Below are positions 2,989 to 28,689 of a stretch of DNA of 64,000 nucleotides, piece by piece; the first letter of the stretch is position 1; each line of letters opens with the position of its first letter. The notes below the pieces were generated by a model. It was given only the letters and a program-made list of their open reading frames with translations. It searched no databases and was not told the origin of the DNA. This DNA comes from Alphaproteobacteria bacterium. Lineage in GTDB: Bacteria; Pseudomonadota; Alphaproteobacteria; GCA-2731375. The position numbers and the translations under genes were made by a program. Location of the stretch: NCBI GenBank assembly GCA_965232515.1, contig CBDDPY010000002.1, forward strand, positions 704,001 through 768,000, written 5' to 3'.

Positions 2989-4405
2989 TGCTTCCAGCGG
3001 TCTGAGCCGGCAGTCCGGGTTCATGGGGGCCTTTCGCGTTTCGCACGCGATCGCCGTGCTTGTCGTCCTAGCCGGTGGCCTGCTCGCGCTTTATCCGCCG
3101 GCTGCCATGTCTCCTGAAATGGCGCGGGCCACCGGCCTCGGCATTGCCACAGTCGGTCTGCTGGCAACGGCCGCGTTGCCAGAACATGTCACGGCGATCC
3201 TGTTCTTTCTCTTTGCCGTCCTGTTCGCGGTGGCGCCGCCGGAAATCATCTTTGCCGGCTTTCATTCCTCCGCCTTCTGGCTGGTCTTCGGCGGCCTGAT
3301 CATCGGCCTCGGTGTGCGCCGGACCGGTCTCGCCGAACGCCTTGCCCACGCTATCGCGCGCGGCCTCGGCACCAGCTATGCCGCCATCATCGGCGGCATG
3401 GTGGCGATCGGCGTCGCGCTCGCCTTCCTGATGCCGTCGACCATGGCGCGCGTCCTGCTGCTGTTGCCGATCGTGATGGCCATGGCGGAAGGCTTCGGCT
3501 TCCAGCCCGGCTCGAAGGGGCGCGCCGGCATGGTGCTGGCGGCGAGCTTCGGCACCATGCTGCCGGCTTTCACCATCCTGCCGGCGGCTTTGCCGGCCGT
3601 GATCATGGCCGGCACCAGCGAGACGCTTTACGGCATCGCGCCGATCTACGGCAATTTCCTGTTGCTGCACTTCCCGGTGCTCGGTTTCCTGAAGGCCGTC
3701 ACCATCGCCGTGATGATCGTGCTGCTGTTTCCGGATACGCCGTCAGTTGCGGGCAAGAGCATTGAAAAGCCGAAGCGGATGCGGCGCGACGAACGGATCA
3801 TGTCGCTGCTTCTGGCGCTGGCGCTGGCCCTCTGGGTGACGGACTTCCTGCATCACGTGTCGCCGGCCTGGGTTGCGCTCGGCGTGGCGTCGATCCTGTT
3901 GTTGCCGGCCGTCGGACTGGTGCCGGCGCAAGCGTTCAGTGAAAAGGTCAACTACGGCTCGCTGTTCTACGTCGCGGGCGTTCTGGGGCTGGGCGCGCTT
4001 CTGAATTACAGCGGGACCGGCGAGCTGCTGGCGCGGGCGGCGCTCGACGTGGTTGCGCTCGAACCCGGCGACACGGCCAAAACCTTCGGTTTCGTCGCCG
4101 GCCTCGGCGCGCTGATCGCCATGGTCGCGACCCAGCCGGCGGTGCCGATCATCATGACGCCGCTCAGTCAGACCATCGCCGATGCCGCGGCCCTGCCGAT
4201 CGAAACCGTGCTGATGATGCAGGTGGTCGGATTCTCGACCGTCGTGCTGCCTTATCAGACGCCGCCATTGGTCGTGGCCATGCAGGTCGGCAACGTGCCG
4301 ATGTCGCAGGGCAACAAGCTCTGCCTCGCCGTGCTGGCGGTCACCATCTTTCTGTTGATCCCGCTGGATTTTGTCTGGTGGTGGGTGCTCGGCCGGTTTG
4401 GCTGA
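2981..4405 (+). CDS. SLC13/DASS family anion permease
   Basis: About 12 hydrophobic segments, LMPSTMAR and LPYQTPP hairpin-like motifs; start uncertain (ATG near 3023 possible). Confidence 0.75.
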   Translation: MPDASSGLSRQSGFMGAFRVSHAIAVLVVLAGGLLALYPPAAMSPEMARATGLGIATVGLLATAALPEHVTAILFFLFAVLFAVAPPEIIFAGFHSSAFWLVFGGLIIGLGVRRTGLAERLAHAIARGLGTSYAAIIGGMVAIGVALAFLMPSTMARVLLLLPIVMAMAEGFGFQPGSKGRAGMVLAASFGTMLPAFTILPAALPAVIMAGTSETLYGIAPIYGNFLLLHFPVLGFLKAVTIAVMIVLLFPDTPSVAGKSIEKPKRMRRDERIMSLLLALALALWVTDFLHHVSPAWVALGVASILLLPAVGLVPAQAFSEKVNYGSLFYVAGVLGLGALLNYSGTGELLARAALDVVALEPGDTAKTFGFVAGLGALIAMVATQPAVPIIMTPLSQTIADAAALPIETVLMMQVVGFSTVVLPYQTPPLVVAMQVGNVPMSQGNKLCLAVLAVTIFLLIPLDFVWWWVLGRFG

Positions 4406-10213: not shown

Positions 10214-11020
10214 CTAGAACCGATAGCCCAGCATGGCGCCGCCGAAGAACTGGGTATCGGACTCGCTCAACGGGCTGTCCCCGGCGTCGCCGATCAGCAG
10301 GTTCGCGCGGGCATCGAAGGCGACATAGACGTTCTTCGTGACGTCGTAGATGATCTGGACGTAACCGCCGACGTCGCGGATGCTGGCCTCGGCCGTGAAC
10401 GCCTCCCGTCCGGGACGTACCTGATCGTCGGCAACGCCGAAAAAGGATTCTGCGTAGGTGTCGCTCATATAGGCCACGTTGGCGCCGATGATCAGGCTGG
10501 AATTCGGACCGAACCGGCCGCCATAGGCGGCATCCGCGCTGGCCAGAAAGCCTTCGTGTCCGGTGCCGACGTCCTGGGCGAAGCTGAGCTGCAGCCTGAA
10601 AGGTCCGTTATAGAGCTCGCCGAACAGTCCGACCTCGATCGCGGGATCGATGTCCGGAATGCCTTCGAGCGCATCACTGCCGCCGGAATCACGGCCGTAG
10701 TCGACCGTAAGCCGCGGCCCGAAACGGATGTTGCCCTTTTTATAGAAGGCCCAGCCGAGGCCGCGCTGCGTGCTGAGGAAGAACTCGCCGCGATACTCGA
10801 CGTCGGCCAGCAATAACGGCTTCAGCTCATACTGGTCGCCGCCAAGGTATTCCGGCGCGACACCCGCGCCGGCCGCGATGTTCGTTCGGAACGCTTCCGG
10901 TGTCGCGGGCTTGACCGCATTGCCGCTGGACAGCCAGTTCCCCCAATCGAGGTATTCGCCCGACCATGCCGGCGTCGCAACGACGCAGACAAGTCCGGCG
11001 GCCAGCAGCAGTTTTTTCAT
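10214..11020 (-). CDS. MipA/OmpV family outer membrane protein
   Basis: Signal peptide (MKKLLLAAGLVCVVATPAWS), PEYLG, YMSDTYAESFFGV, C-terminal YRF; ATG 11020 has an RBS. Confidence 0.85.
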   Translation of the reverse strand: MKKLLLAAGLVCVVATPAWSGEYLDWGNWLSSGNAVKPATPEAFRTNIAAGAGVAPEYLGGDQYELKPLLLADVEYRGEFFLSTQRGLGWAFYKKGNIRFGPRLTVDYGRDSGGSDALEGIPDIDPAIEVGLFGELYNGPFRLQLSFAQDVGTGHEGFLASADAAYGGRFGPNSSLIIGANVAYMSDTYAESFFGVADDQVRPGREAFTAEASIRDVGGYVQIIYDVTKNVYVAFDARANLLIGDAGDSPLSESDTQFFGGAMLGYRF

Positions 11021-11098
11021 TCGCCTCACCTTTACGACGGCGGCGGGAAGGTATCCGGTGGCTGCTTGGTGCGCAAGGCGGGCGAGCTAGGTTTTGTT

Positions 11099-11134
11099 GA
11101 CATTCAAGGGATTGCTTCTGCGGCGGATTTTGAC
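11099..11134 (+). repeat. Diverged direct repeat, copy 1 (left flank of cassette)
   Basis: GACATTCAAGGGATTGCTTCTGCGGCGGATTTTGAC; core 11111-11134 matches 13242-13265 at 23/24. Confidence 0.75.
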
Positions 11135-11189
11135 TTGGCATCCTACCGGCCTAGTTGAGTATCCTGGCAACCACCGATAGCATTCATGG

Positions 11190-12014
11190 ATGGACGGTCA
11201 CGAAACAGACGTGCCGATAGATATCGACTTTGCCGATATCGAACTATATCCACGTTTCCTTGGCGGTATATTTGGTGGTGATGGCGTTGCCCCAACTCGA
11301 GGCAACAACTTTCCGGTTGACTTCGAGCTTTGCTGCGAACTGCAGTTCACGTCGGTACTGCCACCCTTGGACCTCGGAGACATCGAAGTCCAAATTGAGT
11401 TGAAGGCGGCCCGGCTGACCCTTGAACTCACAGACTGTGAGATGCCGCTTTCGCAGCAGAATTATAGAGATCTCGCCCTTGAGAAGGCGTCATTAGTTCA
11501 TGCGCGACAGAGTCGGTCATTCGCCAAGTTGGCAGCTTCTCTAAGGGCAAAGCTCGGGCTCTCTTTAGGAGGCCCTGAAGCAGAAGTCAGCGCAGGACAC
11601 GAACGGGAGTTTGAAACCCAACTCAAAGCCGAACTTGTGCGCCATGTGGTGAATCGCGGTGTAAGGGGGCAAGGCTACCCGAACTATCTCATCGCAGATC
11701 CGCTTGGTCGACCTTTGACGGGCACGGTGATTCACAAAGACGATCGCGAAAACGGGGTGCTTGGAGCGTTGACCAACAGGTCGCCTACGGCTTGGCAAGT
11801 GAAACCGATGCTCGAGATCTCGCTGAGCATCAAACGGATAACGGAGCGGCAAGGAGGCGCATTGCAGGTCCTGAAAACGAACGCTAGGCATGACATCAAA
11901 CAAAGGCGTGCCATGACACAGTTGCAGCTTGTCCAACGCGTGCTTGAAAGGAAGGCTGTCAGGCAACGTCCTTTCGATCCGTGCAAGGCAAGTGATCACC
12001 TGCGGGAAGTCTGA
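11190..12014 (+). CDS. Hypothetical protein, lower GC, with candidate amphipathic beta-hairpin
   Basis: 274-aa ORF with many A/T-ending codons; 3 bp from next gene; no family recognised. Confidence 0.7.
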   Translation: MDGHETDVPIDIDFADIELYPRFLGGIFGGDGVAPTRGNNFPVDFELCCELQFTSVLPPLDLGDIEVQIELKAARLTLELTDCEMPLSQQNYRDLALEKASLVHARQSRSFAKLAASLRAKLGLSLGGPEAEVSAGHEREFETQLKAELVRHVVNRGVRGQGYPNYLIADPLGRPLTGTVIHKDDRENGVLGALTNRSPTAWQVKPMLEISLSIKRITERQGGALQVLKTNARHDIKQRRAMTQLQLVQRVLERKAVRQRPFDPCKASDHLREV

Positions 12015-12017
12015 TCC

Positions 12018-13085
12018 ATGCGCGTTCCTGACCAAGTTGCCATGGCCATCAATGAAATCTTGAAGGACGAGCACAATGACTTCCTTGGCCTCGTAGCAAA
12101 GTCCAACCTAGATCCTGCCAGCGATTTTCGGTCGGCGGATTTGAGCGGTTCGGATCTCTCAAGATGCGATCTGAGCCATTTTGATTTTGCTGAGGCCGAT
12201 CTGCGCGCATGCGACCTCACAAAAACGAGGCTGCCGTCGGGTATTGCTGTCGAACAGATCAATGGTTCTGTGCTGAATGACACCTGGATTGGCGACCAAC
12301 CGATGCGGCCCGAGGACTTGCCCAATTTGGGTTCGTTCCAGGAGGCGGAATTCGCGCCGGAGATGGTGGTAATCCCAGCGGGTCGGTTTTTGATGGGGTC
12401 GCCGGAGGATGAGGAACGGCGCCGTGATAATGAAGGCCCGCAGCATGAAGTGACAATTGACTACCGGTTCGCTGTCGGTCGATACGTGGTTACGTTCGAC
12501 GAGTTCGACATGTTCTGTTCGTTGACAGGACGAACAGGGTCGAATGACGAAGGCTGGGGCCGCGACCGGAATCCTCTGATCTACGCCAGTTGGGAGGATG
12601 CTCAAGCCTACCTCAACTGGCTGAACTTGAATTTGACGCGGGCCTTCTCGTCGCCGCCCTATCGTCTGCTATCTGAGGCCGAATGGGAGTATTGCTGCCG
12701 GGCGGGTTCGGAGAAACCGTTTAGCTTTGGCGAAAAGATTTCGAAGGACCAAGTGAATCACGGAGGCGTCCTTACCCTTACTGGTGTACAGGGGAATTCC
12801 TACCCGACTCGGACGTTGCCAGTTGGTACTTTGCCTGCAAACGGCTGGGGCCTTTTTGAGATGCATGGGAATGTCTGGGAGTGGGTCGATGACACGTGGC
12901 ACAATAGCTACGAGGGTGCGCCAACAGATGGCAGCGCCTGGACCGATGGAAAAGGAATGGGGCGTGTCTTGCGCGGTGGTTCCTGGCGCGAACCTATCAG
13001 AGGTGTTCGTTCTGCCAGCCGCACCGGGCGCATTTCTGGCGAGAGGCGCTTTGACATCGGTTTCCGCGTTGCCAAGACGCTCTGA
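12018..13085 (+). CDS. Pentapeptide-repeat + FGE-sulfatase (SUMF1/CLec-fold) domain protein, non-catalytic
   Basis: Repeats ADLSG/SDLSR/CDLSH/FDFAE/ADLRA/CDLTK; FLMGSP, EGPQH, YRLLSEAEWEY, EMHGNVWEW, RVLRGGSW, IGFRVA; lacks the FGE CxxxxC cysteines. Confidence 0.88.
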   Translation: MRVPDQVAMAINEILKDEHNDFLGLVAKSNLDPASDFRSADLSGSDLSRCDLSHFDFAEADLRACDLTKTRLPSGIAVEQINGSVLNDTWIGDQPMRPEDLPNLGSFQEAEFAPEMVVIPAGRFLMGSPEDEERRRDNEGPQHEVTIDYRFAVGRYVVTFDEFDMFCSLTGRTGSNDEGWGRDRNPLIYASWEDAQAYLNWLNLNLTRAFSSPPYRLLSEAEWEYCCRAGSEKPFSFGEKISKDQVNHGGVLTLTGVQGNSYPTRTLPVGTLPANGWGLFEMHGNVWEWVDDTWHNSYEGAPTDGSAWTDGKGMGRVLRGGSWREPIRGVRSASRTGRISGERRFDIGFRVAKTL

Positions 13086-13143
13086 CTGAAAGAATCGGTT
13101 GCCACCGTCGTCGATCCTGAATAGCCATCCATTGACCAATCCG

Positions 13144-13191
13144 AGCTTCAAACGTGTCTCTGTGGCGCGCCACGGAGACACGTTTGAAGCT
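13144..13191. repeat. 48-bp near-perfect palindrome (hairpin/cruciform)
   Basis: AGCTTCAAACGTGTCTCTGTGGCGCGCCACGGAGACACGTTTGAAGCT; arms complementary except one T.G pair; no U-tract. Confidence 0.9.
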
Positions 13192-13230
13192 ATCTATATT
13201 CGTTGCGCAGCCGTCGCATTGGGGCTTCTA

Positions 13231-13265
13231 GACATTAAGCAATTGCTTCTGCGGCGGCTTTTGAC
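13231..13265 (+). repeat. Diverged direct repeat, copy 2 (right flank of cassette)
   Basis: GACATTAAGCAATTGCTTCTGCGGCGGCTTTTGAC. Confidence 0.75.
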
Positions 13266-13322
13266 GACGCCGTGTGTCTGGTCGCGGCATGCGGGTGGGG
13301 ATGCATTGGGGCCACCAGAAAC

Positions 13323-14150
13323 GAGTCTAGTCACGAGGGCCGGAGTCTGAATTCAAGGCTGAAAACTGGAGGCAAGCCGTAAACCGTGGCTTACTTGACG
13401 ACGAGCAATGGCAGCGGATCACCCCGCTGCTTCCCGGCAAGCCCGGTGGTCCGGGCCTCTCCGGCGACAACAACCGGCTATTCGTGGAAGCTATCCTGTG
13501 GGTGGTGCGCGTTGGTGCCCCCTGGCGTGACCCGCCGTCACATTTCGGCAACTTGAGCTCCGTGTGGAAGCGGTTCCGGCGCTGGGCCGAGAAACGGCGT
13601 GTTCGAGTGCATCTTCAGCGAACTCTCGCGGGATCCGGACTTCGAGTACGCCCCCGTCGTCGGCACCATCGTCAAGGTCCATCGCCACGGCTGCGGCGGA
13701 AAAGAGGGGGGCTCAAAATCAGGCCATCGGCAAATCGCGTGGCGGGCTGACCACCAAGATCGTCGTCCTGGCCGATACGCTTGGCAACCTGGCCCTCCTT
13801 GTCCTGCTGCCCGGCCGGCGCCACGAAAGCATCGGCGTCGAGCCGCTCATAACCAGCCTCGATGTCGATGCCATGATCGCTGACAAGGCTTTCGACAACA
13901 ACGCCGTGCGGGCCAATCTGAACGAGCGCGGCGCGGCCGCCGTGATCCCCTCCAAGGCAGATCGCAAAATCCACATCCCGCACGACACCGAGATGTACAA
14001 GTGGCGCCACCTGGTCGAGAACCCGTTTCAGAGATTCAAGGATTTCCGCCGCATCGCCACACGATAAGACAAGATCGACACAAGCTACGCCGCCGCAATC
14101 CAACTCGTCGCGGCATTGCTCGCCTTGAAGTGAACGTCTACAGACCCTAG
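13323..14150 (+). mobile_element. Degenerate IS5-family (IS427-like) insertion sequence
   Basis: Transposase remnants; right end TGAACGTCTACAGACC-CTAG is typical of the group; left end is eroded and its position approximate. Confidence 0.8.
13378..14133 (+). pseudogene. IS5-family transposase pseudogene
   Basis: LLDDEQWQRITPLLPGK, NRLFVEAILWVVRVGAPWRD, GKSRGGLTTKI, IADKAFD, YKWRHLVEN..FRRIATR; start appears mutated (GTA), extra frameshift near 13595, premature TAA 14065-14067 where Tyr is expected. Confidence 0.85.
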
Positions 14151-16594: not shown

Positions 16595-17302
16595 ATGGCT
16601 CAAGACAAACGACCGGTTCCGAAGCAAGATGATGACACCGACGTCCGCTCGTTCTTGAACAAGGTGGCCGCGACGCCGGTGGTCAAGGCCGCAGGCGTGC
16701 GCGGACGGCTGCTGTTCGGTATGGATGCGACGGCCAGCCGCGAGCCGACTTGGGATACGGCCTGTCAGATTCAGGGCGACATGTTCGCCGAAACCGCGTC
16801 TCTGGGCGGTCTCGACGTGCAACTCGCCTATTATCGGGGCTTCCACGAGTTCAGAGCGACGCCCTGGGTATCCAGCTCCGCCGACCTGATCCCCTATATG
16901 ACCCGCGTCCGGTGCCTCGGCGGACATACGCAGCTCGAGCGCTTGCTGCGTTACGCCGCGAAGGAAACGAAACAGAAACGGATCAACGCCCTGGTGTTTA
17001 TCGGCGACGCCTTGGAGGAGCAGGTCGATTCCGTATGCGCCGTGGCCGGGGAATTGGGGATGCTGGGCGTGCCTTGCTTCATGTTTCACGAAGGGCACGA
17101 CCCTATCCCATTGCGGGCTTTCAAACAGATCGCAACGTTGACGAACGGCGCTTACTGCCGGTTCGATGCCTCCAGCGCGGCGATGTTGAAGGAGCTGCTG
17201 AGCGCCGTGGCCGTCTTCGCCGCCGGTGGCCGGCCGGCTCTGGCCGACTACGGCAAACGCCGCGGCGGCGCCGTGCTGCAACTCGCGCATCAGGTGAAGT
17301 GA
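16595..17302 (+). CDS. VWA domain-containing protein
   Basis: MIDAS-like [19 protein letters not shown]. Confidence 0.8.
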
Positions 17303-23432: not shown

Positions 23433-24488
23433 TCAGGCGGCCTCGGAACGTCGCGGCGCGAAAACCTCGACCGGCGCCTGGCGTCCGCGTAGCTCGATGC
23501 TGCCGAGGCTCTGCGCGTCGATGTCGGCGGGTAGATGCAGCCGGTGGCGCAGGTCGGCGGACATCAGGACCGGCTGGCCGAGGTCGCGGCAGGCTTCTTC
23601 CAGGCGCGCCGTGGTGTTGACGGTATCGCCGAGCACGACGATCTCCTGCTTCTGATCGCCCATTTCGCCGACGACGACCAGGCCGCAGTGAAGCGCGGCG
23701 CGAAACTCGGGCGCCACGCCATATTTGCGCAGGTAGGCGTCCTTGCGATCCGCCAGATAGTCGAGCATGTCGAAATAGCAGGTCAGGCAGCGCGCCCGCT
23801 CGACGCCGACGGCGAGCGGCCAGGTGACGATCACCTCGTCGCCGACATAGGTGTAGATCTGTCCGCGCGCGGCCTGGATCGGCTCACTCAGATCGACGAA
23901 GAAATCGTTGAGAAGAGCGTGAAACCGGACGGGCCCGATGCGCTCGGCGATCCGCGTCGAGCCGATCAGATCGACGAACAGGAAGACGCGTTCCTCCTCG
24001 CGCGGCCGGTGGTAGCGGCCGGCGACGAAGTTGGCGAGAACGTTCTGGCCCAAGAGCCGGTTGATCTCGATCAGCAGATTGACGACGAAGGCGATCAGCA
24101 GCGAAAGGACAAAGGTGATCAGGAACTCGGTGCTGCGGATATTCCAACCTTCATCGCCGTGATAGGCGGCGAAAACCTCGGACCAGACGATCAGGTTGAG
24201 CAGGACGCCGAATACGTAGTAGCTGGTCTTGGCGGCGATATGGATGCTGAACGGCGCTCGCCGCACGCTTCGGAACCAGGGATGGTCGGCCAGGATGAGA
24301 TCGTAGCCGGCGCACCAGGCGCTGATGCAGGCGCCGGTGATCGCCCCCTGGGCGATGCCGGGCCAGTGCAGCTGTTCCGCCAGCGACGAGCCGATCAACA
24401 GCCCATAGATGGCGCCGCCCACCGTCGCGCTGGCGACGATGACAAAAAACAGGCGAAGCTCGCTTTTCCGGCGGGCGCTGCGCGACAT
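23433..24488 (-). CDS. Membrane-bound class III nucleotidyl cyclase
   Basis: 4 N-terminal TMs; FVDLIGST, YVGDE, GDTVNTTARLE. Confidence 0.88.
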   Translation of the reverse strand: MSRSARRKSELRLFFVIVASATVGGAIYGLLIGSSLAEQLHWPGIAQGAITGACISAWCAGYDLILADHPWFRSVRRAPFSIHIAAKTSYYVFGVLLNLIVWSEVFAAYHGDEGWNIRSTEFLITFVLSLLIAFVVNLLIEINRLLGQNVLANFVAGRYHRPREEERVFLFVDLIGSTRIAERIGPVRFHALLNDFFVDLSEPIQAARGQIYTYVGDEVIVTWPLAVGVERARCLTCYFDMLDYLADRKDAYLRKYGVAPEFRAALHCGLVVVGEMGDQKQEIVVLGDTVNTTARLEEACRDLGQPVLMSADLRHRLHLPADIDAQSLGSIELRGRQAPVEVFAPRRSEAA

Positions 24489-27044: not shown

Positions 27045-27746
27045 ATGCTTCGGAACCTCCTGTCACTTCTTTTGTTCGTGAGCGTGGCGTCCGGCTGCGC
27101 CAGCCGTGGGGCCGTCGACGATCCAGTCGTTCGCAGCTTTACCTGGTATTCCTACGTCGGCGGCGAGGACATCAAGGCCGTCTGCGCGCCGGGCGCCAGC
27201 GACCGTTATCGCTTCGTCTACAACGGCGTCTGGGACGAGCAGGTCCGGACCTACGACGTCGCCGGCAGCGCCACGGGGCAGGGGGCCGTCGCCAAGGCGC
27301 GTGTATTTGGCGAGTTCGACTTAAGAAATTTCGCGCTAACGAGCCCGCAATCGGTCTGGCAAGGCGCCAGTTCGCGAGCCAGCCTGACCGAAGACGCCTT
27401 CGACACGCTGCGCCGGATCGTCGCCGAGAGCCCATTCGAGGGACCGACGCCCGACGGCAAGTTCCTGCGCTCGGACGAGTTCTACTGGGCGGTCAGCGCC
27501 TGCCGCGGCGGCCGGTTCCATTTCAATGCCTGGACCGGCGATATGGCCGAATTCGACGAACTGCCGTTCTTCGACCTGCTGCTGCCGCTGGACGGCACCA
27601 ACGTCGCCGTCAACCCGCCCCGACGGCTGTACCTGGGCCCGTTCCAGAACACGCCCCAGCGGTTTCGCACGGCCGGCAGCGCGACCCAGTACTTCCAGCT
27701 GCAGGTCGGCGAGAACGGCCTCCGCCTCGGTCCGACGCTCTTCTGA
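27045..27746 (+). CDS. Hypothetical lipoprotein
   Basis: Signal peptide with lipobox ASGC; codon usage like the host. Confidence 0.7.
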   Translation: MLRNLLSLLLFVSVASGCASRGAVDDPVVRSFTWYSYVGGEDIKAVCAPGASDRYRFVYNGVWDEQVRTYDVAGSATGQGAVAKARVFGEFDLRNFALTSPQSVWQGASSRASLTEDAFDTLRRIVAESPFEGPTPDGKFLRSDEFYWAVSACRGGRFHFNAWTGDMAEFDELPFFDLLLPLDGTNVAVNPPRRLYLGPFQNTPQRFRTAGSATQYFQLQVGENGLRLGPTLF

Positions 27747-27779
27747 TGTACGGTTAACGGCCCAAACGGGCCCACCGAA

Positions 27780-27871
27780 ATGCATCGCAGCATTTTTTGT
27801 TGCGGCGCACAAAATAGTCCTTGACACCCGACCGCTACTGCCTATTTTTACGTCATGTTGCACTGCAACAT
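27780..27871 (+). promoter_or_regulatory. Phasin promoter with three PhaR-type TGC-N3-GCA boxes
   Basis: TGCATCGCA (27781), TGCGGCGCA (27801), palindrome ATGTTGCACTGCAACAT (27855-27871); TTGACA at 27821. Confidence 0.65.
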
Positions 27872-27941
27872 CGGCAGGACAGCGTATTCGTCGTGCAGGT
27901 CTCGCGTACCAAGCCAACGCATAGGGGCTCAGGATTAGGAA

Positions 27942-28448
27942 ATGACGACTAAATCGACCAAAAAGACCACTGACACGGCATCGCAGACCGTCGAGGCCGT
28001 GGTCGCGGCCGGCCAGGAAGCCACCGAGAGCTTCGTGAAAGCCGCCACCGAGAATTACGAGAAGATGTTCACGACCGCGAAAGAGAAGGTGGACGAAGCC
28101 GTGAAAGGCTACGACCAGTTCGCCGTTTTCGGGAAAGAGAACGTCGAGGCCTTCGTCGCCGCCGGCAACGTCGCCACCAAGGGCATGGAGAGCCTGACGG
28201 CCGAGTGGATGACCTACGGCAAGCAGTCGATCGAGGACAGCATCTCGGCGACCAAGGCGATGATGGGCGCCAAGACCCTGCAGGAGCTGATCGACCTGCA
28301 GACGGCGTTCACCAAGAGCTCGCTCGACTCGTTCGTTAACCAGGGCACCAAGGTGACCGAGCTGACCGCCAAGGTCGCCCAGGACACCTTTGCGCCGATC
28401 AACGGCCGCGTGAATGCCGCCGTGGACAAGGTTGTAAAAGCCGCGTAA
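27942..28448 (+). CDS. phaP: Phasin family protein
   Basis: Ala/Lys-rich helical protein; FGKENVEAF, AKTLQELIDLQ, PINGRV; upstream of clpS. Confidence 0.85.
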   Translation: MTTKSTKKTTDTASQTVEAVVAAGQEATESFVKAATENYEKMFTTAKEKVDEAVKGYDQFAVFGKENVEAFVAAGNVATKGMESLTAEWMTYGKQSIEDSISATKAMMGAKTLQELIDLQTAFTKSSLDSFVNQGTKVTELTAKVAQDTFAPINGRVNAAVDKVVKAA

Positions 28449-28472
28449 CTGGCGCCGCCATAGCGCGGATTG

Positions 28473-28509
28473 AAAGGGCCCGGTACCTCCTCCCACCGGG
28501 CCCTTTTTT
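28473..28509 (+). terminator. Intrinsic terminator after phasin
   Basis: AAAGGGCCCGGT-loop-ACCGGGCCCTTTTTT. Confidence 0.85.
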
Positions 28510-28689
28510 AATGGGTTTATGGTAGACTGGGTCGATGTCGCCAATCGGCGTCCGCCGGCCCGGGTTTCCGGCATTCTGGCCGCCAAAACCGGCGGGATGC
28601 GGACAATTACCCATGGCCCCTTCCAATGGGCCTCCGATGCCCGATATTATGATGTGTGATTCAGACAGGCCTGAATAACTGTACCCACC

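What the first reader, a model, noticed from the sequence alone, without database searches (positions are those of the whole stretch)
11190..13085. Foreign two-gene cassette: unknown protein + pentapeptide/CLec fusion, a candidate undescribed sensor-effector system
Seen: two tightly coupled ORFs (3-bp gap) with visibly more A/T-ending codons than the host, bounded by direct repeats and next to an IS remnant. ORF2 has a short helical cap (INEILKDEHNDFLGLVAKSNLDPASDFR), about 7 pentapeptide repeats, then an FGE-sulfatase domain lacking the catalytic CxxxxC. Established: non-catalytic FGE domains adopt a C-type-lectin-like fold and act as ligand binders. Inference: the cap + pentapeptide solenoid is a constant adaptor that couples a swappable C-terminal sensor to ORF1 as effector, as in conflict or anti-phage systems.
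Basis: partly seen in the sequence, partly recalled or inferred. Interest (0 to 1): 0.8.

Follow-up and report, generated by a model that had tools for sequence, protein, structure and literature searches.

The report
Two-gene sensor cassette with pentapeptide adaptor
A foreign two-gene insert encodes a rare unknown protein and a partner that joins a short docking module to a non-catalytic lectin-like sensor domain; relatives elsewhere keep the docking module but swap both the sensor and the partner, which points to an undescribed, still untested, modular conflict system.

Summary
ORF1 (11190-12014) and ORF2 (12018-13085) are intact and 3 nt apart. Their GC3 is 0.57 and 0.63, against 0.77-0.83 in flanking genes. 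They lie between a 29-nt direct repeat, beside a broken IS5-family transposase.

ORF2 has a helical cap, 8 clean pentapeptide repeats and an FGE-sulfatase (FGS) domain lacking both catalytic cysteines. ORF1 belongs to a very rare family: 5 relatives among 1.84 billion representatives, with no Pfam, NCBIfam, PADLOC or PHROGs match.

I could inspect nine cap-pentapeptide loci.
- In 8 of 9, a same-strand gene ends within -8 to +3 nt of the cap gene's start.
- That gene is ORF1-like in 4. The cap protein's C-terminus differs among them: FGS, HEAT-like, and two with no family match and no detected similarity to the others.
- It belongs to a second family in 3, one carrying a ThsB-like TIR domain.

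A co-fold of ORF1 with ORF2 residues 1-110 scored 0.87, best control 0.00. It docks ORF1's C-terminal helix on the cap.

The adaptor idea is therefore supported. ORF1's role as effector and any defence function remain inference: its fold is unresolved, no defence island surrounds the cassette, and nothing was tested at the bench. I rate it a new variant of the known FGS-sensor conflict systems.

The parts
11106..11134 (+). Left copy of the flanking direct repeat, in the intergenic region between the MipA gene and ORF1.
   Evidence: Matches the right copy at 26 of 29 positions. The core occurs twice in the window, with 0.00 expected by chance. It extends to about 36 nt with one indel.
11190..12014 (+). 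ORF1, 274 aa, a member of a very rare unnamed family. The model is beta-rich with a poorly predicted middle (residues 94-152) and a C-terminal amphipathic helix.
   Evidence: Searches show 5 relatives in 1.84 billion representatives. AF2 with 7 sequences gave pLDDT 51.5 and pTM 0.43. Pfam, NCBIfam, PADLOC and PHROGs give no match.
11889..11960 (+). ORF1 residues 234-257, the C-terminal helix predicted to dock on the ORF2 cap.
   Evidence: The lowest-error contacts in the co-fold are ORF1 243-252 with ORF2 7-31 and 36-47. AF2 predicts a helix at 234-254.
12018..13085 (+). ORF2, 355 aa: cap, pentapeptide solenoid, linker and a non-catalytic FGE-sulfatase (FGS) domain.
12018..12119 (+). ORF2 residues 1-34, the helical cap. 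F22, L25 and L31 are invariant in the family alignment.
   Evidence: Alignments A2 and A6. Cap residues form the interface.
12120..12299 (+). ORF2 residues 35-94: 8 clean and about 4 degenerate pentapeptide repeats, enough for two to three coils.
   Evidence: Pfam PF00805 covers 35-72 at 31.8 bits against a cut-off of 20.2. The repeat register was printed.
12354..13076 (+). ORF2 residues 113-353, the FGE-sulfatase (FGS, C-type-lectin-like) domain without the two FGE catalytic cysteines. PvdO is the closest solved structure.
   Evidence: Pfam 8.1e-50. PvdO 5hha scores 2e-47 and FGE chains about 1e-21, with both cysteine positions missing.
13144..13191 (+). Terminator-like perfect hairpin closing the two-gene operon.
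13237..13265 (+). Right copy of the flanking direct repeat.
13386..14067 (+). IS5/IS4-family transposase pseudogene, lying outside the repeats and not part of the cassette itself.
   Evidence: DUF4096 and DDE_Tnp_1 are in different frames. I read the frame breaks and the early stop.

Best explanation
The cassette is a horizontally acquired two-protein module of the sensor-adaptor-output kind.

ORF2 is the sensor. Its C-terminal FGS domain has lost the FGE catalytic cysteines and most likely binds a ligand rather than catalysing a reaction. Its N-terminal helical cap and short pentapeptide beta-helix form a docking platform.

ORF1 is made from the same message. It binds that platform through its C-terminal amphipathic helix and is the output part. 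Its activity is unknown.

By analogy with the closest FGS relatives, which carry TIR or caspase domains fused directly to the FGS domain, ligand binding would change how ORF1 is held and so release or activate it. The most likely setting is conflict with phages or other mobile elements.

What rests on tool results: gene anatomy, foreign composition, recurrence of the coupled pair, swapping of both the C-terminus and the partner, and a co-fold that passes its controls.

What is inferred: physical binding, the direction of signalling, ORF1 as effector, and a defence role.
For: 1. Coupling. In 8 of 9 cap-pentapeptide loci a same-strand gene ends within -8 to +3 nt of the cap gene's start: the window (TGAtccATG), L001, L003, L004, L005, L006, L007 and L015.

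2. ORF1-like partners. The upstream gene is ORF1-like in the window, L001, L004 and L015.
- The A1 HMM gives E 2.6e-7 (L001) and 1e-7 (L004) among 129 neighbouring ORFs, with nothing else below 0.1.
- The A4 HMM gives 2.8e-12 for L015.
- hhalign probabilities are 64, 58 and 63%.

3. Different C-termini. The cap proteins of these four loci carry FGS, a HEAT-like domain, and two regions with no family match and no detected similarity to the others.

4. Co-fold of ORF1 with ORF2 1-110. The score was 0.87 (runs 0.87, 0.86, 0.88) and the best of 3 controls was 0.00.
- That mark was reached by 58 of 80 solved complexes and 2 of 110 mismatched pairs.
- The runs share at least 77% of their contacts, and the partner's pLDDT is at least 83.
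- My own alignments were used, so these counts hold only roughly.
- The interface uses the invariant cap residues L25 and L31.
- A profile of the ORF1-like family finds nothing in the PDB (best E 1.5), so a pass from memory of a solved complex is unlikely.

5. Link to conflict systems.
- Of the 119 listed non-self relatives of ORF2, by my reading of the table, 32 carry TIR, 3 caspase and 15 pentapeptide repeats N-terminal of the FGS domain.
- The partner in L006 has a TIR domain (Pfam TIR_2 2.6e-14, PADLOC ThsB 2.4e-17).
- FGS is described as an intracellular invader-sensing lectin-like domain (PMC8195603, abstract and section 7 passages; PMC7159879 passages) and as a sensor of defence-associated STAND proteins (PMC13581612, figure legend).

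6. Mobile settings. The related loci sit beside an IS remnant (window), plasmid repC (L001), a BrnA antitoxin gene (L003), a PD-(D/E)XK transposase (L006), an IS200 transposase and a terminase (L007), prophage-like genes (L005), and a plasmid region with an invertase and a PIN-like gene (L015).
Against: - No known defence family matches ORF1 or ORF2, even at E up to 1.
- The window is not a defence island. All 22 neighbouring ORFs scanned are housekeeping genes. The only two PADLOC hits are a generic nucleotide cyclase and a Clp-type AAA ATPase, 10-16 kb away.
- ORF1's fold is unresolved: pLDDT 37 alone and 51.5 with 7 sequences. Foldseek gives nothing against PDB (best E 0.4, TM about 0.1) or BFVD (best E 0.09).
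- The link between the window's ORF1 subfamily and the three partners with visible context is only moderate. hhalign gives 58-64%, and for L015 covers only 38 columns.
- All three of those partners were found by looking upstream of cap genes. Linkage was therefore never tested from the ORF1 side.
- The genomic context of the five closer relatives (P0122, P0123, P0124, P0126, P0127) could not be seen.
- L002 has a cap-HEAT-like gene with no ORF1-like sequence in the 349 nt available upstream.
- L005 pairs a 94-aa cap-only protein with a RecT-like gene, which fits a phage recombination setting better than a sensor-effector one.
- No NTPase, protease or other switch is present, unlike most described FGS systems.
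- Nine loci is a small sample, and it was selected by one peptide pattern.
Confidence: 0.5

Rival explanations
1. ORF1 and ORF2 do form a complex, but it serves the mobile element itself, for example as an addiction or toxin-antitoxin-like pair or in plasmid or prophage maintenance. It is not a host immune sensor.
For: The related loci sit on plasmids next to repC (L001), beside a BrnA antitoxin gene (L003), near an HTH-M78 gene, a PIN-like gene and an invertase (L015), and in prophage-like DNA (L005, L007). Tight translational coupling of two small genes is typical of such pairs. There is no PADLOC match.
Against: A ligand-binding lectin-like domain that is swapped for other large domains is not a usual feature of antitoxins. 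The closest FGS relatives are fused to TIR and caspase domains. No known toxin or antitoxin family matches ORF1 or ORF2.
Confidence: 0.18
2. The cap-pentapeptide part acts as a DNA mimic, as Qnr and MfpA do. The cassette would then be a counter-defence or anti-restriction device of mobile DNA that targets a DNA-binding enzyme, with ORF1 as a co-factor.
For: [quoted passage not shown] L005 has a 94-aa cap-only protein coupled to a RecT-like gene in prophage-like DNA. The nearest ESM-Atlas clusters to ORF2 1-95 are short pentapeptide-only proteins of 104-129 aa, scoring 0.94 (a lead only).
Against: Eight to twelve repeats give two to three coils, far shorter than Qnr-type mimics. The NCBIfam Qnr model scores 19.2 bits against a cut-off of 240. 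tblastn of the short cap protein and of ORF1 finds nothing in 50,697 phage records. This reading does not explain the large swappable C-terminal domains.
Confidence: 0.1
3. ORF2 is an enzyme, a PvdO/EgtB-like oxidoreductase of the FGE fold, that modifies a small molecule or ORF1 itself. The cassette would then be a small biosynthetic or protein-modification operon.
For: The best named matches are PvdO (NCBIfam 1.2e-56; PDB 5hha 2e-47). A cysteine (C83) is invariant within the closer ORF1 subfamily.
Against: The PvdO score of 191.8 bits is far below the 500-bit cut-off. Both FGE catalytic cysteines are absent. C83 is not kept in the wider family, and reading the sequences there is no CxPxR-like motif around it. 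ORF1-like partners also pair with cap proteins that have no FGS domain at all.
Confidence: 0.07
4. The cassette is a stranded, non-functional passenger left by an old insertion. It is intact by chance and not expressed.
For: The adjacent IS is a pseudogene. No sigma-70-like promoter was found upstream of ORF1 on the + strand in a simple scan. The family is extremely rare.
Against: Both frames are fully open (1 stop each, against 13-19 in the other + frames and 3-10 in the reverse frames). The start codons and the coupling are kept, and a strong terminator-like hairpin follows. Conserved positions are retained relative to relatives at 36% and 60% identity.
Confidence: 0.1

Closest known systems
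FGS-domain (FGE-sulfatase, PF03781) sensor proteins of prokaryotic conflict systems: TIR-FGS, caspase-FGS, STAND-FGS and vWA-FGS (PMC7159879 and PMC8195603, passages read; PMC13581612, figure legend read)
   Same: The FGS domain is C-terminal, non-catalytic and lectin-like, with all other parts N-terminal of it. The closest relatives of ORF2's FGS domain (52-57% identity over about 70% of ORF2) carry TIR or caspase domains. These proteins are also cytoplasmic and found in variable, mobile settings.
   Different: No NTPase (STAND, MoxR-vWA, GTPase or ParA) or peptidase is encoded next to it, and no reverse transcriptase was seen among the neighbours scanned. The output is on a separate polypeptide, held by a cap-pentapeptide module. 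I did not find that arrangement in the passages read or in the two full-text searches.
EACC1 two-gene conflict system (PMC7159879, section 33 passages)
   Same: Both have a 5' gene for a constant small component and a 3' gene whose N-terminal part is constant and whose C-terminal region varies widely between relatives.
   Different: EACC1 is a single-pass membrane protein and its partner starts with a caspase. ORF1 has no hydrophobic segment (maximum 19-residue Kyte-Doolittle mean 0.86), and ORF2 starts with a cap and pentapeptide repeats, not a peptidase.
Effector-associated domain (EAD) adaptor pairs (PMC7159879, section 30 passages)
   Same: The logic is the same: a small non-catalytic docking module links interchangeable effectors and sensors that are encoded by neighbouring genes.
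   Different: The passages read describe copies of the same EAD domain on the linked proteins. Here the predicted contact is between two different parts, a C-terminal helix and a cap plus beta-helix, and there is no sequence match to any named domain.
PvdO (PDB 5hha), the closest solved structure to the ORF2 C-terminal domain
   Same: Same fold, E 2e-47 over ORF2 residues 107-354.
   Different: ORF2 scores 191.8 bits against the 500-bit equivalog cut-off. It carries an N-terminal cap and pentapeptide module that the 286-residue PvdO chain does not have. There is no pyoverdine gene context.
Qnr/MfpA-type pentapeptide DNA mimics
   Same: Same repeat type (Pfam PF00805).
   Different: ORF2 has only 8-12 repeats. 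The Qnr family models score 12-19 bits against cut-offs of 240-480. ORF2 is also fused to a large second domain.

Membership tests
Catalytic formylglycine-generating enzyme (FGE/SUMF1) | FGE-sulfatase fold (PF03781) | tested here: met
   Pfam 8.1e-50 over residues 113-353.
Catalytic formylglycine-generating enzyme (FGE/SUMF1) | The pair of active-site cysteines (that they define catalysis is recalled) | tested here: not met
   In the alignment to FGE chains, one cysteine lies in a 3-residue stretch absent from ORF2 and the other aligns with Ile.
PvdO (NCBIfam NF051459 equivalog) | Score above the curated cut-off of 500 bits | tested here: not met
   191.8 bits.
Pentapeptide repeat proteins (PF00805) | Tandem five-residue repeats scoring above the gathering score | tested here: met
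   31.8 bits against 20.2 over residues 35-72. The printed register shows 8 clean repeats.
Qnr/MfpA DNA-mimic pentapeptide proteins | NCBIfam Qnr family model above its cut-off | tested here: not met
   19.2 bits against 240.
FGS-sensor conflict systems (Kaur et al. 2020, 2021) | FGS domain at the C-terminus with the other domains N-terminal, and relatives fused to effector domains | tested here: met
   for the architecture. Of 119 listed relatives, 32 carry TIR and 3 carry caspase.
FGS-sensor conflict systems (Kaur et al. 2020, 2021) | Linked NTPase switch (STAND, MoxR-vWA, GTPase) or peptidase | tested here: not met
   The neighbours are a MipA gene, an IS pseudogene and metabolic genes. None was seen next to the cap genes of L001, L003, L004, L006, L007 or L015.
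FGS-sensor conflict systems (Kaur et al. 2020, 2021) | Association with a diversity-generating retroelement (frequent, not universal) | tested here: inconclusive
   No reverse transcriptase appears among the 20 window ORFs scanned with Pfam. Template repeats were not searched for, and the rest of the genome is not available.
Known anti-phage defence systems (PADLOC-DB v2) | Match of either protein to a defence-system model | tested here: not met
   ORF2 has 0 families. ORF1 has only a chance-level hit at E 0.043. The cap genes and partners of L001-L004 and L007 also have none; only the L006 partner matches ThsB-like TIR models.
EACC1 two-gene system | 5' gene with a conserved single transmembrane helix and 3' gene starting with a caspase | tested here: not met
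   The maximum 19-residue hydropathy is 0.86 in ORF1 and at most 1.49 in the 12 upstream proteins analysed (P0126 was left out). ORF2 has no peptidase domain.
Beta-pore-forming toxins (leukocidin, aerolysin, ETX/MTX2), a lead for ORF1 | Sequence or fold match, and an amphipathic insertion hairpin | tested here: not met
   The ESM-Atlas named neighbours score only 0.84-0.87, and the tool itself flags the family as probably wrong. Pfam gives none. Foldseek gives none. The beta hydrophobic moment is not beyond shuffles in 7 of 8 family members.
ORF1-like family (unnamed; alignments A1 and A4) | About 250-330 aa, collinear match to the family profile, and a position directly upstream of a cap-pentapeptide gene | tested here: met
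   For the window protein: P0122 at 6e-29 and four others down to 4e-4. For the three context-visible members. Position could be checked only for the window, L001, L004 and L015.

The most novel reading that the evidence does not exclude
The cap plus two-to-three-coil pentapeptide beta-helix is a general docking adaptor for a family of small immune modules that work without any NTPase. It captures a C-terminal helix of a separately encoded output protein. That protein can be ORF1-family, a second family that can carry TIR, or others. The adaptor links it to interchangeable intracellular sensors: FGS, HEAT-like and at least two more. This gives two-sided plug-and-play exchange of sensors and effectors by gene shuffling. 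ORF1 would then be a new kind of effector with a new fold.
Probability: 0.33. Interest if true: 0.8.

Novelty: new variant of a known kind. Interest (0 to 1): 0.62.

Why it matters
FGS (FGE-fold) domains have been proposed as intracellular invader sensors. In the passages I read, they are described mostly as fusions to TIR or caspase domains, or as parts of NTPase-driven systems.

This cassette suggests a simpler wiring. The sensor and the output are separate proteins joined by a small cap-pentapeptide adaptor, and both sides can be exchanged.

If that holds, three things follow:
- a new adaptor pair for wiring bacterial immune modules;
- a function for short pentapeptide modules other than DNA mimicry;
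- a new and extremely rare output family whose activity is unknown.

It is also directly testable with two small soluble proteins and a predicted helix-to-cap interface.

Tried and rejected
ORF1 searches that gave nothing:
- The word-indexed search found only the protein itself.
- Pfam, NCBIfam, PADLOC and PHROGs gave no match.
- A profile of the ORF1-like family against PDB sequences gave a best E of 1.5.
- tblastn of ORF1, P0123, P0128, the L004 partner and the L015 partner against plasmids found nothing or only the query's own record.
- tblastn of ORF1 against phages found nothing.

ORF1 structure:
- The single-sequence model had pLDDT 37 and the 7-sequence model 51.5.
- Foldseek against PDB and BFVD gave no match with E at or below 0.001.

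Pore-former lead for ORF1. This came from ESM-Atlas named neighbours scoring 0.84-0.87. I rejected it as unsupported: the beta hydrophobic moment was not above shuffles in 7 of 8 members, and there was no Pfam or fold match.

A single partner family. I suspected the L003, L006 and L007 partners were divergent ORF1 homologues. hhalign of A4 against A3 gave a probability of 0.8%, so I rejected that. A shared C-terminal amphipathic helix across all partners is only a visual impression.

ORF2 N-terminus. The search with residues 1-100 found only ORF2 itself.

Loci dropped:
- L008-L012 from the genome scan. They are other pentapeptide proteins, including ion-channel and HTH fusions and a 1237-aa upstream neighbour.
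- L013 and L014 from the L007 N-terminus search against plasmids. They are 229-aa plasmid proteins with the repeats at the C-terminus.

Other negatives. Megablast of the whole cassette against plasmids gave no match. There is no tRNA gene in the window.

Calls that could not be made:
- The search for related loci with the ORF1 alignment A1 failed because no stretch was conserved enough.
As a result, the neighbours of P0003 and of P0122, P0123, P0124, P0126 and P0127 stayed unchecked.
Full report
**What is in the window**

ORF1 (11190..12014, 274 aa) and ORF2 (12018..13085, 355 aa) are both on the + strand, separated by TGA-tcc-ATG.

GC drops from about 0.64 to about 0.55 across 11000-13250. 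GC3 is 0.567 and 0.626, against 0.77-0.83 in five flanking genes. One further row of that call was mis-framed by me and was dropped.

The pair and a terminator-like hairpin (13144-13191) lie between two copies of a 29-nt direct repeat, at 11106-11134 and 13237-13265, matching at 26 of 29 positions. The core of that repeat occurs nowhere else in the window, with 0.00 expected by chance.

To the right, outside the repeat, is an IS5/IS4-family transposase with its domains in different frames. To the left is a MipA gene.

The wider region holds housekeeping genes: carboxylase subunits, dehydrogenases, a glutamine-synthetase-like gene, sugar-nucleotide enzymes and a Clp ATPase. None of the 22 neighbouring ORFs scanned is a convincing defence gene.

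The cassette is therefore a lone foreign insertion, not part of a defence island.

**ORF2**

Pfam finds Pentapeptide at residues 35-72 and FGE-sulfatase at 113-353. I count 8 clean repeats (35-74) and about 4 degenerate ones. Ahead of them is a helical cap (residues 1-34).

The nearest solved structure is PvdO (2e-47), followed by true FGEs at about 1e-21. Both FGE active-site cysteine positions are missing, and the PvdO equivalog cut-off is not reached (191.8 against 500 bits). The domain is thus a non-catalytic FGS domain.

Of the 119 listed non-self relatives, by my reading of the table:
- 15 combine pentapeptide repeats with FGS;
- 32 carry TIR, 3 caspase, 1 a kinase, 2 a peptidoglycan-binding domain and 1 PF07603;
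- 65 show only FGS.

The TIR-FGS proteins match ORF2's FGS domain at 52-57% identity. That is closer than most cap-pentapeptide-FGS proteins (42-49%), except P0003 at 60%.

The cap itself is conserved in the cap-pentapeptide-FGS proteins. F22 and L31 are invariant and L25, P33 and R38 nearly invariant in A2; F22, L25, L31 and R38 are invariant in A6.

**ORF1**

The word-indexed search found only the protein itself. The exhaustive HMMER search of 1.84 billion representatives found seven proteins at E up to 0.001:
- ORF1 itself;
- one repeat protein that I discounted (P0125);
- five collinear relatives of 205-272 aa: P0122 at 36% identity and 6e-29, and four more down to 4e-4.

It is a real but very rare family with no match in Pfam, NCBIfam, PADLOC or PHROGs.

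AF2 with seven sequences gives a low-confidence, beta-rich model (pLDDT 51.5) with a poorly predicted middle and a C-terminal helix. Foldseek finds nothing. There is no hydrophobic segment.

A language-model lead to pore-forming toxins was weak and failed my follow-up.

**Related loci**

A tblastn search with the ORF2 N-terminus found an Agrobacterium plasmid (L001). A 254-aa hypothetical gene there overlaps a cap-pentapeptide gene by 8 nt, and that gene's C-terminus is HEAT-like, not FGS.

It returned 11 loci. Six carry the cap (L002-L007). Five are other pentapeptide proteins and were dropped.

A further plasmid locus (L015) came from the short L005 protein.

With the window, that makes nine loci:

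| Locus | Upstream partner | C-terminus of the cap protein |
|---|---|---|
| Window | ORF1 | FGS |
| L001 | ORF1-like | HEAT-like |
| L004 | ORF1-like | No family match |
| L015 | ORF1-like | No family match; no detected similarity to L004's region |
| L003 | Second family (A3) | FGS |
| L006 | Second family (A3), with a ThsB-like TIR domain | FGS |
| L007 | Second family (A3) | FGS |
| L005 | RecT-like | None (94-aa cap-only protein) |
| L002 | None in the 349 nt before the contig end | HEAT-like |

In 8 of the 9 loci a same-strand gene ends within -8 to +3 nt of the cap gene's start. L002 is the exception.

Evidence that the partners in L001, L004 and L015 are ORF1-like:
- The A1 profile gives 2.6e-7 (L001) and 1e-7 (L004) among 129 ORFs, with no other hit below 0.1.
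- The A4 profile gives 2.8e-12 for L015.
- hhalign probabilities are 58-64%.

The L003, L006 and L007 partners share a different C-terminal region. It is unrelated to ORF1 by hhalign, at 0.8%. The L006 partner adds an N-terminal TIR domain that matches ThsB models.

The module therefore keeps the cap and the gene coupling, while both the C-terminal domain and the upstream partner change.

**Co-fold**

ORF1 (7-row alignment) with ORF2 residues 1-110 (17-row alignment) scored 0.87, 0.86 and 0.88. The best of three controls scored 0.00.
- The mark is reached by 58 of 80 solved complexes and by 2 of 110 mismatched pairs.
- The runs agree in at least 77% of their contacts, and the partner's pLDDT is at least 83.
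- My own alignments were used, so the calibration holds only roughly.
- The lowest-error contacts join ORF1 243-252 (the C-terminal helix) to ORF2 7-31 and 36-47 (the cap and the first coil). These include the invariant L25 and L31.
- No solved relative of ORF1 exists by sequence, so a pass from memory is unlikely.

This supports binding. It does not show it.

**Reading**

The best-supported picture is a two-protein module.
- ORF2 senses through its lectin-like FGS domain and holds ORF1 by a cap-to-helix contact.
- ORF1 is the output.
- A role in conflict with phages or mobile elements rests on three things: the TIR and caspase fusions of the nearest FGS domains, the TIR-bearing partner in L006, and the mobile settings of the loci.
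- It also rests on published proposals that FGS domains sense invaders (PMC7159879 and PMC8195603, passages; PMC13581612, a figure legend; bioRxiv 10.1101/2022.07.19.500537, passages).

Weighing against it:
- no defence-model match;
- no defence island;
- no switch NTPase or protease;
- an unknown fold and activity for ORF1;
- moderate homology statistics for the three partners with visible context, all found from the cap side;
- one locus without a partner, and one with a RecT-like partner.

I put the sensor-adaptor-output conflict module at 0.5. The rivals are an element-maintenance or addiction pair (0.18), a DNA-mimic counter-defence device (0.10), an enzyme operon (0.07) and a dead passenger (0.10).

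**Comparison with what is known**

By logic, it works like the FGS-sensor conflict systems and like the EAD and EACC1 'constant adaptor plus variable parts' arrangements of Kaur et al. It fails the defining features of each named system that I could test:
- no NTPase or peptidase partner;
- no transmembrane EACC1-like 5' protein;
- no same-domain EAD pair.

In two full-text searches and the passages read from five papers, I found no description of a cap-pentapeptide adaptor paired with an ORF1-like or TIR-bearing upstream gene. Supplementary tables of those papers were not read and may list such architectures.

I rate it a new variant of a known kind, with interest 0.62.

**Left open**
- Linkage counted from the ORF1 side.
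- Co-folds of the other pairs.
- All bench tests.

Noticed in passing
L006:3688-4917 with L006:4914-6032 (Azospirillaceae MAG contig JANQHG010000050.1): A 409-aa protein has an N-terminal ThsB-like TIR domain (Pfam TIR_2 2.6e-14, PADLOC ThsB 2.4e-17). Its stop overlaps the start (GTGA) of a cap-pentapeptide-FGS gene, and a PD-(D/E)XK transposase gene follows. This is the clearest effector-bearing version of the cassette.
   Followed up: partly
L005:3823-4968 and L005:4965-5249 (Shinella kummerowiae NZ_WUMK01000004.1): A 94-aa protein made only of the cap and pentapeptide repeats is translationally coupled (ATGA) to a 381-aa RecT-family protein with a long unannotated C-terminal half. The surroundings are prophage-like: DUF968, an IS605 OrfB/TnpB gene and a PAPS-reductase-like gene.
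   Followed up: partly
L015:2509-4934 (Beijerinckiaceae plasmid LR699074.1): An ORF1-like 331-aa gene overlaps by 4 nt a 477-aa cap-pentapeptide gene whose roughly 380-aa C-terminal region matches no Pfam family. An HTH-Peptidase_M78 gene and a weak PIN-like gene lie just upstream, and a DNA invertase gene is nearby.
   Followed up: partly
window 13144-13191: A 24-nt-arm palindrome with no spacer (96% complementary) lies between ORF2 and the right repeat. It fits a terminator-like hairpin but could also be a protein-binding or recombination site.
   Followed up: partly
window 13216-13232 and 13303-13319: A second short direct repeat (17 nt, 82% identity) brackets the right copy of the main repeat. 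Its meaning is unknown.
   Followed up: no
window 13386-14067: This IS5/IS4-family transposase is a pseudogene. The DUF4096 and DDE parts are in different frames, there is an early stop at 14065-14067, and no clear start codon.
   Followed up: partly
window 23436-24488 (-): A nucleotide cyclase (Pfam Guanylate_cyc 1.6e-11) gives a PADLOC PycC hit (5.9e-15). It sits among housekeeping genes, so it is probably a generic cyclase and not a Pycsar system.
   Followed up: no
window 16595-17302 (+) and 27339-28586 (-): Two host-composition ORFs, of 235 and 416 aa, have no Pfam match at 1e-6.
   Followed up: no
L013 and L014 (Novosphingobium pCAR3 and a Sphingobium plasmid), locus coordinates about 3111-3800: A conserved 229-aa protein with pentapeptide repeats at its C-terminus recurs on sphingomonad plasmids. 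On pCAR3 it lies near ssb, thermonuclease and MucR genes. It has a different architecture from the cap family and may be an anti-restriction-type DNA mimic.
   Followed up: no
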